From the IMG/VR virus record IMGVR_UViG_2718218136_000001: 64,000 nt of DNA; one strand, written 5' to 3'. The notes beneath the pieces are model-generated. The model was not told the DNA's origin. It saw nothing but the letters and a program-made list of their open reading frames with translations, and searched no databases. The position numbers and the translations under genes are program-made. Each line of letters begins with the position of its first letter. Position 1 is the first letter of the stretch. The DNA comes from a virus (Duplodnaviria; Heunggongvirae; Uroviricota; Caudoviricetes). Below are positions 19,137 to 22,100 of this stretch, piece after piece.

Positions 19137-22100
19137 AAGAGCTGTGCTATGGATCTGTTTGCAGTGGAATTGAAGCCGCGAGTATTGCCTGGGAACCGTT
19201 GGGTATGCGTCCGGTTTGGTTTGCTGAAATCGAGCCTTTTCCATCGGCCGTTCTTGCGCTCCGCTGGCCCCATGTCGCCAACCTTGGCGACATGACAAAA
19301 CTTGCCAAAAAAGTCTTGGCTGGGGAAATCGAATCCCCTGACGTGCTCGTCGGGGGAACACCATGTTTTACCGCGGGGCATATGGTTCTTTGTAAAAATG
19401 GTTATAAACCAATAGAAGATGTTTGCCCTGGCGATTACGTAGTCAGTCATCTCGGGCGGTTACAACAAGTAAAAAGAGTTGGTTCAAAAATAGCTAATAC
19501 GGGGTTACTTAATGCCGTTGGGCAGCCTTTAGGTATAAGAACAACCAATGACCATCCCTTCCTGGCTGTTCGGTGGAAAGCCCAAAACACCCGGAAAAAT
19601 GGCACATATTTTAAGAGAGAGTTGTTGTCTGAACCGGAATGGCGAGCAGCATGTGATATGCCGGGATATCAATGGTGCGCTCTAACTAATTTCAATATTG
19701 CATCTCCAGATATTTGTTCTCGGTTCTTGTCTGAAGAACAGGCTATGTATCTTGCGGGCGCTTATGTTGGCGATGGATATATTAGGAGATGGAGAGGTAA
19801 ATCTAAGAAGGCGGTTGTTTTTGGCATAAATTGCCAGAAATTGAGAAAGTTTCATTGCCGCATACCAGAAAACATATTTTCCGTGGCAAGCGAAATCCGA
19901 GGGAGCATCAAAGTAACCTTGAATGATACGTGTTATGCCAATTGGCTTAATGAACATTTTGGCGAGTTAAGCCATGCTAAGCGTATCCCTGCATGGGTGA
20001 TGTCGCATCCATTGCGTCATGTGTTTTTACAAGGCTATCTTGATACTGATGGGACACCAAGTGGTAAAGCGGGATTTAGAATTAATAGTGTTAGTCCTGC
20101 GCTTGCTTGGGGCGTTGCGGGGTTGTCACAGACTTGTGGTTATGTTTCTTCGGTCAGCTTTATTGAAGTTGAGCCCAAAAAAGTGATCGAGGATCGCGTG
20201 GTAAATCAACGGAATTATTATCAGGTAACAATCTGCCCGCAGAAATTGTCACGTAAATCAAGATTGGCTCATGGAATGCTTTTACGAACAGTCAAAGAGT
20301 TTAAATCGGTAGGCCTAGATACTGTATACAACATAGAAGTCGAAGGTGATCATTCCTATATCCTCAATGGTGCGGTGGTCCATAACTGTCAGGCATTCAG
20401 TATCGCGGGCTTACGTGGTGGGCTTGATGATGAACGCGGCGCGCTAACTTTGAAGTATGTGGAGCTTGCAAATGCAATTGACGACAAACGGTCTGAGTCC
20501 TTCCTCAAACCGACAGTTATCGTCTGGGAAAATGTCCCAGGAGTCCTGTCATCGGCAGATAACGCCTTCGGATGTTTCCTTGCCGGATTGGCTGGAGAAG
20601 ATGCGCCATTTGAACCAGGTGATCGACCTGAATCAGGAAAAAGTAACGCGTTCTGGCGGTGGGATGGCAAAACCGGTTGCCATGCTCCAAAGTGGCCGCA
20701 GTGTGGTTGTATTTATGGACCGCAGCGAAAGGTGGCCTGGAGAATCCTTGATGCCCAATACTTCGGAGTGGCACAACGACGCCGACGCGTGTTTGTTGTC
20801 GCAAGTGCTCGAACAGACCTCGATCCCGCAACGGTACTTTTTGAGTTCGAAGGCGTGCGTCGGAATATTGCGCCGAGCCGAAAAAAGAAGGAAATCGCTT
20901 CCGCCATTATTGCAAATGGCGCTGCAATCAGTGGCGAAAGCCTAAATCCATGCCTACACGCTGACATGCCACCCGGTATGAAATCGACGAAAGCCGTAAA
21001 CGCTTTCAGGATGGCAGCATTTGGGGAATATATTGACGATGAAACCGCATCGACAGTAAAGGCAAGAGATTTTAAAGATGCCACTGACCTTGCCGTTTTT
21101 AGCAGCACAGGAGCAGGTTTTTGGTCAGAAGGGCATGGTACATTGCGGGCACGTGAGCAAGAAAGCCATGAGCATCTTGTTACATTGGTTTTTCCTGAGC
21201 GTATGAGCGGTACACAACATGCTGAAACTAAGAATACTTCACCATCTCTAATGGCTAAAAATCCAACAGCTGTTTGCTATGAAGTAAGAAACGCAGAAGT
21301 AGCTGTCCGCCGTCTTACCCCTGTCGAATGTGAAAGGCTGCAAGGTTTTCCTGATGGGCATACGTTGATCCCGACGGAAAAGCGTAAAAAAGTTAATTCA
21401 GATGAACTGGCATATCTTCGCAATCACTATCCAGATTTAAGCGAAGAAGAGGCCGCGATGCTTGCAGCTGACGGACCGCGTTACAAAGCGATCGGCAATA
21501 GTATGGCAATACCAGTAATGCGCTGGATTGGCGATCGGATTACTAAGGCCGTATGTCGGCAGAAAGAAGGAAGTGAAACAAAAGAGCGAAAAGTTAAACC
21601 AGCGGCAGAATTCGAACGGTCCATATTCAAATGGGCTGGTGGAAAATTTGGTGTTCTGGAACAAATCTTTCGCTATTTGCCAGAAGGGAAGCGCCTGATC
21701 GAACCTTTTGTCGGTGGCGGAGCTGTCTTCACGAATGCCGGATACCAGGAAAATCTGCTAAATGATGTGAATGCTGACCTGATTAACTTTTACAAGACTC
21801 TGCAACGCGAGGCGCATTCACTTATCACACTGGCGCATCGTTTCTTCCAGGACTACAACACACAGGAAGGATACCTGGCAGTACGGAATGCGTTTAACAA
21901 ACAAGTCTATGATGATTTACATCGCGCAGCGGCGTTTTTGTTCCTGAACCGACATTGTTTTAACGGATTGACGCGTTACAACCAGGCCGGTGAGTTCAAT
22001 GTCGGTTATGGGAAGTATAAAACTCCGTATTTCCCATTACAGGAGATGGAAGCCTTCCTCGGTGCGGAAGGGCGGTCTGAGTTTGTATGCGGTGATTTTG

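What the first reader, a model, noticed from the sequence alone, without database searches (positions are those of the whole stretch)
19364..20386. LAGLIDADG intein inserted at the catalytic cysteine of the Dmt C5-methyltransferase
The dmt ORF is 1095 aa. A 341-aa segment splits C5-MTase motif IV into GGTP and CQAFSIAG and carries all intein hallmarks: Cys1, block B TxxH, two LAGLIDADG blocks, and [21 protein letters not shown] followed by Cys+1. Excising it restores PCQ and gives 754 aa, the length recalled for P1 Dmt. An intein in a phage-plasmid methyltransferase active site is a notable selfish element and makes methylation depend on splicing.
Basis: partly seen in the sequence, partly recalled or inferred. 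Interest (0 to 1): 0.8.

Follow-up and report, generated by a model that had tools for sequence, protein, structure and literature searches.

The report
Mobile intein splitting P1 Dmt methyltransferase
The DNA methyltransferase gene (dmt) of this P1-like phage-plasmid carries a self-splicing, self-copying protein insert (an intein with a homing endonuclease) exactly at the enzyme's catalytic cysteine; it is a textbook kind of selfish element, unannotated, sitting in about a third of natural P1-like plasmids.

Summary
ORF 19133-22420 (+) is dmt, 1095 aa. P1 Dmt (754 aa) aligns colinearly with exactly one 341-aa gap, window 19364-20386, between Pro77 and the catalytic Cys of C5-methyltransferase motif IV (GGTP|C…HN|CQAFS).

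The insert has all eight intein blocks. It passes LAGLIDADG_3 and intein_Cterm thresholds. It folds confidently (pLDDT 93.7) into a Hint plus LAGLIDADG structure whose best PDB matches are PI-SceI and the VMA inteins.

It is polymorphic:
- 152 of about 490 dmt-bearing complete E. coli genomes carry it, and 133 PLSDB plasmids.
- It is always at the same nucleotide.
- Copies differ by at most 1.1%, while the host alleles differ by up to 9%.
- Linkage to donor-type flanking markers decays with distance from the insert, which is a homing signature.

It belongs to a large, apparently undescribed family. In 127 of the 136 best full-length 50%-identity cluster representatives the intein sits at the same Pro|Cys site of C5-methyltransferases.

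Splicing and endonuclease activity are inferred, not shown.

Verdict: a real, probably active class-1 intein; a new member of a known kind; moderately interesting as an experimentally tractable homing system.

The parts
17866..17911 (+). C1 repressor operator Odmt (17866-17882) and sigma-70 promoter Pdmt (17882-17911) of the uhr-hrdC-dmt operon
   Evidence: The operator and both promoter hexamers are identical to the annotated P1 features (AF234172 65145-65190). The 125-nt alignment has 2 mismatches, both outside the operator and the hexamers.
19133..22420 (+). dmt precursor ORF, 1095 aa, 121.7 kDa (the end coordinate includes the stop codon)
   Evidence: ORF. 99% nt identity to dmt of phage RCS47. 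The exact protein is WP_065749882.1. Molecular weight.
19133..19363 (+). N-extein, aa 1-77: C5-methyltransferase N-terminus, ending in GGTP of motif IV
   Evidence: Alignment to P1 Dmt and to M.HhaI residues 18-80.
19364..20386 (+). Intein, 341 aa, 38.3 kDa: Hint splicing domain with an inserted LAGLIDADG homing-endonuclease domain
   Evidence: Absent from P1 Dmt. GC 43.0%, against 54.5% in the N-extein and 48.7% in the C-extein.
19364..19402 (+). Intein block A ([13 protein letters not shown]), with the nucleophile Cys1 at 19364-19366
   Evidence: Cys1 is conserved in 100% of 128 family members.
19532..19564 (+). Intein block B ([11 protein letters not shown]): Thr61 and His64
   Evidence: T61 is conserved in 99% and H64 in 100% of family members.
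19745..19780 (+). Block C, first LAGLIDADG motif ([12 protein letters not shown]), with the catalytic Asp137
   Evidence: G132 and G138 are conserved in 100% and D137 in 94% of family members.
19976..19999 (+). Block D (AKRIPAWV), with the conserved Lys206
   Evidence: K206 is conserved in 98% and P209 in 99% of family members.
20021..20056 (+). Block E, second LAGLIDADG motif ([12 protein letters not shown]), with the catalytic Asp229
   Evidence: D229 and G230 are each conserved in 98% of family members. The Pfam LAGLIDADG_3 hit covers intein residues 221-284.
20087..20143 (+). Block H of the endonuclease domain ([19 protein letters not shown])
   Evidence: S244 is conserved in 88% and L247 in 97% of family members.
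20321..20386 (+). Blocks F and G ([22 protein letters not shown]): C-terminal splicing region, with His340 and Asn341
   Evidence: TIGR01443 intein_Cterm scores 28.9 bits against a cutoff of 15.6. N341 is conserved in 100% and H340 in 91% of family members.
20387..20389 (+). Cys+1 (Dmt Cys419). It is both the +1 splicing nucleophile and the catalytic cysteine of C5-methyltransferase motif IV (PCQ).
   Evidence: Aligns with the Cys of GFPCQAFS in M.HhaI. That this cysteine (Cys81) is the catalytic nucleophile of M.HhaI is established knowledge, not tested here. Conserved in 99% of family members.
20387..21562 (+). C-extein part 1: the rest of the C5-methyltransferase (ENV, QRRRR, a variable target-recognition region, [22 protein letters not shown])
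   Evidence: Pfam PF00145 E 1e-30; TIGR00675 101 bits against a cutoff of 100.65. Alignment to M.HhaI.
21614..22399 (+). C-extein part 2: Dam-type N6-adenine methyltransferase domain (aa 828-1089)
   Evidence: PF02086 E 5.3e-56; TIGR00571 246.5 bits against a cutoff of 114.85.

Best explanation
**What it is.** The segment is a canonical class-1 intein with an embedded LAGLIDADG homing endonuclease. It sits in dmt between Pro77 and the catalytic cysteine of the C5-cytosine methyltransferase domain.

**Inferred mechanism, protein level.**
1. dmt is transcribed from the C1-repressed promoter Pdmt when repression is lifted. A 122-kDa precursor is made.
2. Cys1 of the intein attacks the Pro77-Cys78 peptide bond (N-S acyl shift).
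3. Cys+1, which is also the methyltransferase's own catalytic cysteine, takes over the N-extein by trans-thioesterification.
4. Asn341 cyclises and releases the intein.
5. An S-N shift forms a normal Pro-Cys bond and restores motif IV (GGTPCQAFS). The products are the 83.5-kDa, 754-aa bifunctional Dmt and a free 38-kDa intein.

**Inferred mechanism, DNA level.**
1. The free intein acts as a site-specific endonuclease on intein-less dmt alleles carried by other P1-like elements in the same cell.
2. It cuts at the sequence spanning the Pro|Cys codons.
3. Repair from the intein-bearing copy converts the empty allele, together with a short stretch of upstream flank.

**What is shown and what is inferred.** Shown here: the anatomy, the fold, the conservation of catalytic residues, the presence/absence polymorphism, and the recombination pattern in natural populations. 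Inferred: that splicing occurs, that the endonuclease cuts, and that the unspliced precursor lacks C5 activity.
For: **Anatomy.**
- The insertion is precise: 341 aa relative to P1 Dmt.
- All blocks A, B, C, D, E, H, F and G are present.
- Profile hits: LAGLIDADG_3 at 35.1 bits against 22.5; Hint_2 at 28.5-29.5 bits against 28.4; intein_Cterm at 28.9 bits against 15.6.

**Fold.**
- AF2 model: pLDDT 93.7, pTM 0.90.
- The top 16 Foldseek PDB hits are all intein homing endonucleases: PI-SceI at 5.5e-17, the Tli and Pho VMA inteins, PI-PfuI and PI-PkoII. I-DmoI and I-SceI follow.
- The profile also hits RecA, DnaB and DnaX mini-inteins at the C-terminal region.

**Host site.** The spliced sequence aligns across the junction to M.HhaI GFPCQAFS.

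**Purifying selection** in 128 homologous inteins at the same site:
- Splicing residues: C1 100%, T61 99%, H64 100%, N341 100%, C+1 99%.
- Endonuclease residues: D137 94%, D229 98%, K206 98%.

**Mobility.**
- The intein is present in 152 of 5426 complete E. coli genomes. 337 genomes have an uninterrupted dmt site.
- Nucleotide diversity of the intein is 0.53%, with at most 11 differences in 1023 nt and no stop codon in 32 copies.
- It sits in N-exteins that differ by up to 21 of 231 nt, and in both target-recognition-region forms of the gene (754- and 672-aa exteins).
- The window's C-extein is identical over 560 nt to an intein-less P1-type allele, while its N-extein differs from that allele at 9 of 231 positions.
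- The Pro codon at -1 is CCA in 32 of 32 intein-bearing alleles and CCT in 50 of 50 intein-less alleles.
- Donor-type markers decay with distance. Among 23 distinct intein-bearing haplotypes they are present in 23 at -4, 18 at -22, 15 at -48 and -104, 14 at -118 and 6 at -148.
- All four allele combinations exist with the site at +24.

**Foreign composition.** GC3 is 37% in the intein, against 52% and 42% in the exteins.

**Regulation.** The operator Odmt and promoter Pdmt are conserved.
Against: - No experiment exists. Neither splicing nor DNA cleavage has been observed for this protein, and I found no paper on it.
- Pfam Intein_splicing (PF14890) stays below its gathering score (22 bits against 35.8), and NCBIfam intein_Nterm did not hit.
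- The residue at -1 is Pro. From my own knowledge of intein engineering (not verified here), Pro at -1 is unfavourable for the first acyl shift in several model inteins.
- Block F has Asn323 where many class-1 inteins have Asp.
- The recombination pattern could in principle come from general homologous recombination among co-resident P1-like plasmids after a single insertion.
- The intein-less sample was partly selected through a C-extein pattern. This biases the apparent association with downstream markers. It does not bias the -1 result.
- Among the variable sites in the intein, 15 are synonymous and 15 non-synonymous. At this shallow depth that does not show strong constraint.
Confidence: 0.8

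Rival explanations
1. The intein still splices, but its endonuclease is no longer active or no longer finds targets. It persists by vertical inheritance and is moved between dmt alleles only by ordinary homologous recombination among P1-like plasmids. This would be the late phase of the homing cycle.
For: - No direct evidence of cleavage.
- The ratio of non-synonymous to synonymous variable sites within the P1 family is 15:15.
- P1-like elements recombine frequently; the window is mosaic relative to RCS47 and P1.
- The intein has not gone to fixation: it is at about 31%.
Against: - Both LAGLIDADG aspartates and the block D lysine are intact here, and are 94-98% conserved across 128 family members.
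- The intein is far less diverse (0.53%) than the backgrounds that carry it, which differ by up to 9%. This is what a driving element produces.
- Linkage to flanking markers decays over only tens of nucleotides, the scale of a co-conversion tract.
Confidence: 0.13
2. The insert does not splice. It is a tolerated insertion that permanently inactivates the C5-methyltransferase domain, and the protein serves only as a Dam methylase.
For: - The C5 activity of P1 Dmt was only 'perhaps' assigned in the P1 annotation.
- Dam methylation is the function known to matter for P1 packaging (review PMC12707154).
- The reference P1 itself carries a Gly-to-Trp change in motif IV, and another lab P1 has an incomplete dmt. 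Loss of the C5 domain is therefore tolerated in the laboratory.
- Pro at -1 is unfavourable in some inteins (own knowledge).
Against: - Every splicing residue is intact, and each is conserved in 99-100% of family members apart from the penultimate His340 at 91%.
- The C5 extein motifs on both sides stay intact and in frame in all but two of the intein-bearing alleles examined (L005, L007).
- A dead insertion would be expected to accumulate stops and frameshifts. None is seen in 32 intein copies, and only two of the 34 carrying alleles are disrupted, both in the N-extein and not in the intein (L005, L007).
Confidence: 0.04
3. The intein has been co-opted as a conditional switch. Splicing, and hence C5 methylation, would respond to redox state or to the stage of the P1 cycle. 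Alternatively, its endonuclease would serve the plasmid as a weapon against competing intein-less P1-like plasmids.
For: - The insertion is at the catalytic cysteine, so C5 activity must wait for splicing.
- The intein has 11 cysteines, including Cys1 and Cys10.
- Expression is under the C1 operator, so the protein appears on infection or induction.
- P1-like plasmids compete within cells; this part is inference.
Against: - Nothing in the sequence distinguishes this from an ordinary selfish intein.
- Roughly two thirds of P1-like dmt genes do without it.
- The same intein type occurs in many unrelated C5-methyltransferases, which fits site-specific parasitism better than a P1-specific adaptation.
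Confidence: 0.03

Closest known systems
PI-SceI (Saccharomyces VMA1 intein) and the archaeal VMA, PI-PfuI and PI-PkoII inteins
   Same: - Two-domain architecture: a Hint splicing domain interrupted by a two-motif LAGLIDADG endonuclease.
- Cys1, block B TxxH, and a terminal HN followed by Cys+1.
- These are the best structural matches: Foldseek E 5.5e-17 to 2.4e-9, TM 0.5-0.6.
   Different: - Only 11-17% sequence identity.
- Shorter (341 aa against 454-537 aa), so it probably lacks the extra DNA-recognition regions.
- The host protein is a DNA methyltransferase of a bacterial phage-plasmid, not an ATPase or polymerase.
- Pro at -1.
Inteins in actinobacteriophage and mycobacteriophage DNA methylases (Kelley et al. 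2016, PMC5050341; Gosselin et al. 2023, PMC9957025)
   Same: - A phage-borne orphan DNA methylase invaded by a LAGLIDADG intein.
- Patchy distribution.
- The intein is much less diverged than the exteins, and its phylogeny is incongruent with theirs. [quoted passage not shown]
   Different: - Those exteins are N6_N4_Mtase (N4/N6 methylase) proteins. Here the extein is a C5-cytosine methyltransferase (PF00145), and the insertion is at the catalytic Pro-Cys dipeptide.
- Different hosts: Actinobacteria against Enterobacteriaceae.
Reference P1 Dmt (AAQ14041, 754 aa)
   Same: The exteins are the same protein: 99% identity, a C5-methyltransferase plus Dam fusion, in the same operon uhr-hrdC-dmt under Odmt/Pdmt.
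   Different: - Reference P1 has no intein.
- It carries Trp instead of Gly at motif IV (VWGTPC). That change is not seen in 53 other intein-less alleles.
Homing endonuclease genes in group I introns of phage genes (for example T4 td and nrdB)
   Same: The same population logic: a site-specific endonuclease targets the empty allele of a conserved phage gene during mixed infection and is copied in, with co-conversion of the flanks. This is established knowledge.
   Different: There the element is removed at the RNA level. Here removal is at the protein level, and it uses the host enzyme's own catalytic cysteine as a nucleophile.

Membership tests
Intein (class 1 protein-splicing element, Hint fold) | In-frame insertion at a conserved site of a host protein, absent from orthologous alleles | tested here: met
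   P1 Dmt lacks exactly these 341 residues. 337 E. coli genomes have the uninterrupted site and 152 have the insert.
Intein (class 1 protein-splicing element, Hint fold) | N-terminal nucleophile (Cys or Ser at position 1) and block B Thr-x-x-His | tested here: met
   Cys1, Thr61 and His64 are present and are 99-100% conserved in 128 homologues.
Intein (class 1 protein-splicing element, Hint fold) | C-terminal His-Asn followed by a Cys, Ser or Thr at +1 | tested here: met
   The sequence is ...VVHN|C. TIGR01443 intein_Cterm scores 28.9 bits against a cutoff of 15.6. N341 is conserved in 100% and C+1 in 99% of homologues.
Intein (class 1 protein-splicing element, Hint fold) | Hint fold of the splicing domain | tested here: met
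   The AF2 model has pLDDT 93.7. Foldseek top hits are intein structures. Pfam Hint_2 scores 29.5 bits against 28.4 on the full protein.
Intein (class 1 protein-splicing element, Hint fold) | Match to the curated Pfam Intein_splicing model (PF14890) at its gathering score | tested here: not met
   17.9-22 bits against a cutoff of 35.8. The model is interrupted here by the endonuclease domain. The other profile evidence and the fold evidence compensate.
Intein (class 1 protein-splicing element, Hint fold) | Demonstrated autocatalytic excision and extein ligation | not testable with these tools
   Needs protein expression and mass spectrometry.
LAGLIDADG (DOD) homing endonuclease | Two LAGLIDADG motifs, each with a catalytic acidic residue, plus blocks D and H | tested here: met
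   YLAGAYVGD137G and FLQGYLDTD229G are present, with K206RIP. LAGLIDADG_3 E 1.7e-8, 35.1 bits against 22.5. Conservation is 94-98%.
LAGLIDADG (DOD) homing endonuclease | LAGLIDADG endonuclease fold | tested here: met
   Foldseek matches to I-DmoI and I-SceI at E about 1e-4, and to the endonuclease domains of PI-SceI and PI-PfuI.
LAGLIDADG (DOD) homing endonuclease | Sequence-specific cleavage of the intein-less allele | not testable with these tools
   Only indirect evidence is available: low intein diversity across diverged exteins, and a decay of linkage of the kind expected from co-conversion.
C5-cytosine DNA methyltransferase (extein, PF00145) | Motif IV Pro-Cys-Gln with the catalytic Cys, restored after excision, plus motifs I, VI, VIII, IX and X | tested here: met
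   The spliced sequence aligns across the junction to M.HhaI. PF00145 E 1e-30; TIGR00675 101 bits against 100.65.
Dam-type N6-adenine methyltransferase (C-terminal extein domain) | D12-class methyltransferase domain | tested here: met
   PF02086 E 5.3e-56; TIGR00571 246.5 bits against 114.85.

The most novel reading that the evidence does not exclude
The intein may be more than a passenger. Two versions of this reading are not excluded:
1. **Inter-plasmid weapon.** The endonuclease is released when C1 repression is lifted. It breaks the dmt gene of competing intein-less P1-like plasmids in the same cell, and so acts as an exclusion system.
2. **Conditional switch.** Splicing at a Pro(-1)/catalytic-Cys junction is slow or sensitive to redox state. 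This would delay C5 methylation relative to Dam methylation during the P1 cycle.

Either would give a selfish element a function in phage-plasmid biology.
Probability: 0.1. Interest if true: 0.75.

Novelty: new member of a known kind. Interest (0 to 1): 0.45.

Why it matters
P1 is one of the classic model phages, and P1-like phage-plasmids are common carriers of resistance genes in Enterobacteriaceae.

**It is missing from annotation.**
- About a third of natural dmt genes carry this intein.
- At least one laboratory 'P1' isolate does too (OP279344).
- Every source I saw names the full-length protein a methyltransferase (PGAP: 'Dam family ... methyltransferase') and none marks the intein; only fragments are called 'Hint domain-containing protein' or 'LAGLIDADG family homing endonuclease'.
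- Size, domain and activity predictions for Dmt are therefore wrong in hundreds of records.

**For intein biology it offers three things.**
1. A very large insertion-site family at the Pro|Cys catalytic dipeptide of C5-methyltransferases. I could not find it described.
2. A natural polymorphism at intermediate frequency with visible co-conversion tracts, in an organism where crosses, induction and genetics are easy. Homing dynamics could be measured directly.
3. An intein lineage that natively has proline at -1. From my own knowledge, that junction is usually avoided in intein engineering.

It is still an ordinary kind of element. No new mechanism is implied.

Tried and rejected
**Literature.**
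- I used ten full-text searches. The terms included intein with P1, RCS47, dmt, cytosine methyltransferase, DNA methylase, extein and OP279344. None returned a paper describing this intein or any intein in a C5-methyltransferase.
- The hits that looked promising were unrelated: the CASP14 N4-methyltransferase and the BASEL collection.
- The phage methylase inteins of Kelley 2016 are in N4/N6 methylases, a different family; those of Gosselin 2023 are in an actinophage methylase family whose text never mentions cytosine.
- The Novikova 2015 intein survey does not mention methylases in its text, and its supplements are not held.
- I could not retrieve a paper to support the Pro(-1) remark. It is marked as my own knowledge.

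I used a C-extein pattern from the window instead. This biases the intein-less sample towards one downstream haplotype.

**Explanations considered and rejected.**
- Assembly artefact or chimera: rejected, because the identical insertion occurs in more than 150 independent complete genomes.
- A gene on the opposite strand: rejected, because the reverse frame read is full of stops.
- A second intein type or mini-intein in OP279344, suggested by its 1013-aa Dmt: rejected. The length difference lies in the methyltransferase's variable target-recognition region, not in the intein.
- An apparent 119-difference outlier in the N-extein comparison. I did not inspect it; it may be a mis-registered flank. 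The nucleotide diversity for intein-bearing N-exteins is therefore inflated and is not used.
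Full report
**1. The observation**

The window encodes one long ORF, 19133..22420 on the + strand, 1095 aa. The segment 19364-20386 translates without a stop into 341 residues. It begins CFTAGH and ends [21 protein letters not shown]. The next codon (20387-20389) is TGT, Cys. The reverse strand of the segment is full of stops.

The ORF is 99% identical in DNA to dmt of phage RCS47 and of vB_EcoM-Ro157c2YLVW, both also 1095 aa. It matches reference P1 in two pieces that together cover 69% of the query.

A protein alignment shows that P1 Dmt (754 aa) is colinear, with exactly one gap of 341 residues at this place. 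At the DNA level the insert is always exactly 1023 nt, between nt 231 and 232 of dmt, in all 34 intein-bearing alleles I collected.

**2. What it is**

*Profile evidence.* These models pass their curated thresholds:

| Model | Score | Cutoff |
|---|---|---|
| Pfam LAGLIDADG_3 | 35.1 bits (E 1.7e-8) | 22.5 |
| Pfam Hint_2 (full protein) | 29.5 bits | 28.4 |
| NCBIfam intein_Cterm | 28.9 bits | 15.6 |

Pfam Intein_splicing stays below its threshold (22 bits against 35.8).

*Blocks.* All eight canonical intein blocks can be placed:

| Block | Window coordinates | Key residues |
|---|---|---|
| A | 19364-19402 | Cys1 |
| B | 19532-19564 | Thr61, His64 |
| C | 19745-19780 | LAGLIDADG-1, Asp137 |
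| D | 19976-19999 | Lys206 |
| E | 20021-20056 | LAGLIDADG-2, Asp229 |
| H | 20087-20143 | |
| F and G | 20321-20386 | His340, Asn341 |

*Fold.* An AlphaFold2 model built on an alignment of 15 homologues is confident (pLDDT 93.7, pTM 0.90). Its best matches among solved structures are exclusively intein homing endonucleases: PI-SceI at E 5.5e-17, the Thermococcus and Pyrococcus VMA inteins, PI-PfuI and PI-PkoII. Free-standing LAGLIDADG enzymes such as I-DmoI and I-SceI follow.

*Host site.* After in-silico excision the exteins read ...[27 protein letters not shown].... This aligns without a gap to M.HhaI ...ILCAGFPCQAFSISGKQKGFEDSRGTL.... The cysteine of that motif is the catalytic nucleophile of C5-methyltransferases; this is established knowledge for M.HhaI Cys81.

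The intein therefore sits between the Pro and the catalytic Cys of motif IV. The Cys that serves as the +1 splicing nucleophile is also the enzyme's active-site residue. The remainder of the C-extein holds the other C5 motifs and a complete Dam domain.

**3. Distribution and mobility**

*Frequency.*
- The 1023-nt insert occurs at 99% identity or more in 133 PLSDB plasmids, from E. coli, E. albertii, E. fergusonii, Salmonella and Shigella.
- It occurs in 152 of 5426 complete E. coli genomes, almost always on plasmids.
- The 5' 600 nt of P1 dmt finds 492 genomes, of which 337 have the site uninterrupted.
- About 31% of natural P1-like dmt genes therefore carry the intein.
- One GenBank record named 'phage P1' (OP279344) has it too.

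*Independence from the host allele.* Both forms of the methyltransferase's variable region exist with and without the intein: 754-aa and 672-aa exteins.

*The allele sample.* I compared 82 alleles with complete flanks: 32 intein-bearing and 50 intein-less, giving 23 and 29 distinct haplotypes.
- The intein is nearly invariant. Nucleotide diversity is 0.53%, with at most 11 differences in 1023 nt and no stop codon.
- It sits in N-exteins that differ by as much as 21 of 231 nt (9%).
- The window's own allele has a C-extein identical over 560 nt to an intein-less P1-type allele. Its N-extein differs from that same allele at 9 of 231 positions.

*Flanking markers.*
- The Pro codon just upstream is CCA in 32 of 32 intein-bearing alleles and CCT in 50 of 50 intein-less ones.
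- Other donor-type markers fall off with distance. Among 23 distinct intein-bearing haplotypes they occur in 23 at -4, 18 at -22, 15 at -48 and -104, 14 at -118 and 6 at -148.
- Most of these markers (-1, -22, -48, -104, -118, -148) are absent from every intein-less haplotype; the -4 marker occurs in 4 of the 29.
- Downstream, all four combinations with the site at +24 exist.

An insertion cannot arise twice by mutation. These patterns therefore mean repeated transfer of the intein, with short and variable flanking tracts, into diverged alleles. This is the expected footprint of endonuclease-driven homing.

General recombination after a single insertion cannot be formally excluded. The intein-less sample is also biased for downstream markers, because of how it was retrieved.

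*Composition.* The intein's base composition is foreign: GC 43.0% against 54.5% and 48.7% in the exteins, and GC3 37%.

**4. A large family at the same site**

- A search of 5.8 billion proteins found relatives at 46-53% and about 30% identity, nearly all in the same position of C5-methyltransferases.
- An exhaustive profile-free search of 1.84 billion cluster representatives gave 192 hits at E ≤ 1e-30. Of the 136 full-length hits among the best 148, 127 have the context x-G-x-P | C...(H)N | C-Q-x-x-S.
- Genome contigs place such inteins in Rhizobiales, Sphingomonadales, Burkholderiales, Actinobacteria, Clostridia, Bacteroidia, Campylobacterota, Parcubacteria and one Desulfurococcales archaeon.
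- Below about 25% identity the relatives sit in the classical intein hosts. Their flanking motifs look to me like those of ribonucleotide reductase, DnaE, IMP dehydrogenase and SufB; this was read from the flanks and not tested with profiles.
- IMG/VR contains many viral contigs with relatives.

Across the 128 same-site inteins the residues needed for splicing and for DNA cleavage are conserved. This argues that both activities are under selection in the family.

| Role | Residue | Conservation |
|---|---|---|
| Extein | Pro-1 | 99% |
| Splicing | Cys1 | 100% |
| Splicing | Thr61 | 99% |
| Splicing | His64 | 100% |
| Splicing | Asn341 | 100% |
| Splicing | Cys+1 | 99% |
| Cleavage | Asp137 | 94% |
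| Cleavage | Lys206 | 98% |
| Cleavage | Asp229 | 98% |

At this depth intein identity and extein identity correlate (r = 0.70). The nearest relative outside P1 (57% identity) lies in another C5-plus-Dam fusion. No recent donor outside the P1 family has been sampled.

**5. Mechanism**

The operator Odmt and the promoter Pdmt of P1 are conserved upstream (17866-17911). The protein is therefore made when C1 repression is lifted.

I infer the standard class-1 pathway:
1. N-S shift at Cys1.
2. Trans-thioesterification to Cys+1.
3. Cyclisation of Asn341.
4. S-N shift.

The products would be the 83.5-kDa Dmt and a 38.3-kDa free intein. The free intein would then cut intein-less dmt alleles in co-resident or co-infecting P1-like genomes and be copied in by repair.

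The unspliced precursor should lack C5 activity, because the catalytic loop is split. The Dam domain may not depend on splicing.

None of these steps has been observed. Two features could slow the first step: the invariant Pro at -1 and Asn at block F position 323. I flag this from my own knowledge of intein engineering; I could not retrieve a source.

**6. Comparison with what is known, and novelty**

- The architecture is that of PI-SceI-type inteins.
- The closest biological parallel is the inteins in actinobacteriophage DNA methylases. These show the same patchy, recombining behaviour but lie in N4/N6 methylases.
- I found no paper that mentions an intein in P1 or RCS47 dmt, or in any C5-methyltransferase.
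- All public names for this protein are 'Dam family site-specific DNA-(adenine-N6)-methyltransferase' or 'DNA methyltransferase'.
- In one frameshifted copy the annotation pipeline labels the middle fragment a LAGLIDADG homing endonuclease. Some fragments elsewhere are called 'Hint domain-containing protein'.

I classify it as a new member of a known kind. It has an insertion site that seems undescribed but is plainly abundant in databases.

**7. Verdict**

The element is real, canonical, very probably splicing-competent, and probably still mobile.

It deserves moderate rather than high interest. There is no new mechanism. There is, however, an unannotated and experimentally convenient homing system in a classic model phage, and a large intein family that uses a methyltransferase's catalytic cysteine as its splice nucleophile.

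Noticed in passing
L001 (P1 AF234172) dmt codon 74, 12-10 nt upstream of the site that corresponds to window 19363|20387: The reference P1 genome has TGG (Trp) where the window and the other ten alleles compared base by base have GGG (Gly), giving VWGTPCQ instead of VGGTPCQ in catalytic motif IV; in the 82-allele sample no minor allele at this site reached 3 copies. Another lab P1 record (AF234173) has an incomplete dmt. The C5 domain of laboratory P1 may be defective, which could explain why its C5 activity was only ever called 'perhaps'.
   Followed up: partly
window 38314-44346 (- strand): A complete type I restriction-modification system: hsdR 38314-41430, hsdS 41552-42787 and hsdM 42784-44346. 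It lies in a 6-kb stretch with no megablast match to the parts of RCS47 and P1 that were compared.
   Followed up: partly
window 56502-57602 (+): A 366-aa SIR2_2-domain protein (PADLOC PDC-S25 at 1.7e-27; ThsA-like at 1e-17). It occupies the position where P1 carries the EcoP1I res/mod genes (P1 3463-9751). It is a candidate defence gene swapped into the same hotspot.
   Followed up: partly
window 11926-15353 (- strand): The parB, parA and repA genes have no megablast match to RCS47 or P1, although the flanks are syntenic. This suggests a different partition and incompatibility type in this P1-like plasmid.
   Followed up: no
P0011 (Mannheimia haemolytica; seen on 578 contigs): A homologous intein (47% identity) sits at the same GGTP|C site, but the C-extein stops after 'CQSDKGG...'. 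The methyltransferase is truncated while the intein ORF is kept and is widespread in that species.
   Followed up: no
L029 4001-5047 (Sphingopyxis sp.) and P0084: A same-site intein is followed by Ser instead of Cys at +1 (VVHN|SQGFSLAG). The spliced methyltransferase would lack its catalytic cysteine.
   Followed up: no
L003 (OP279344, 'phage P1 isolate del res del mod'): A laboratory P1 used in Argonaute studies carries the intein and the short (672-aa extein) dmt variant. It is therefore not isogenic with reference P1 at this locus.
   Followed up: partly
L005 (NZ_CP012497) and L007 (NZ_CP010146): Two intein-bearing alleles are broken in the N-extein. L005 lacks one G in the GGGGG run 8-12 nt upstream of the intein. 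L007 has an early stop at codon 61. In L005 PGAP labels the fragment containing the intein 'LAGLIDADG family homing endonuclease'.
   Followed up: partly
window 51026-51360: A stretch of about 335 nt is 86% identical to part of ant1 (antirepressor), away from the main ant locus near 2486-5628. It may be a second, diverged immunity-region fragment.
   Followed up: no
window 23093-23246 and 24687-24762: tRNA-Asn(GTT), tRNA-Thr(TGT) and tRNA-Met(CAT) lie downstream of dmt, as in P1 and RCS47. The related plasmid pO111_2 has an extra tRNA-Tyr between Asn and Thr.
   Followed up: no
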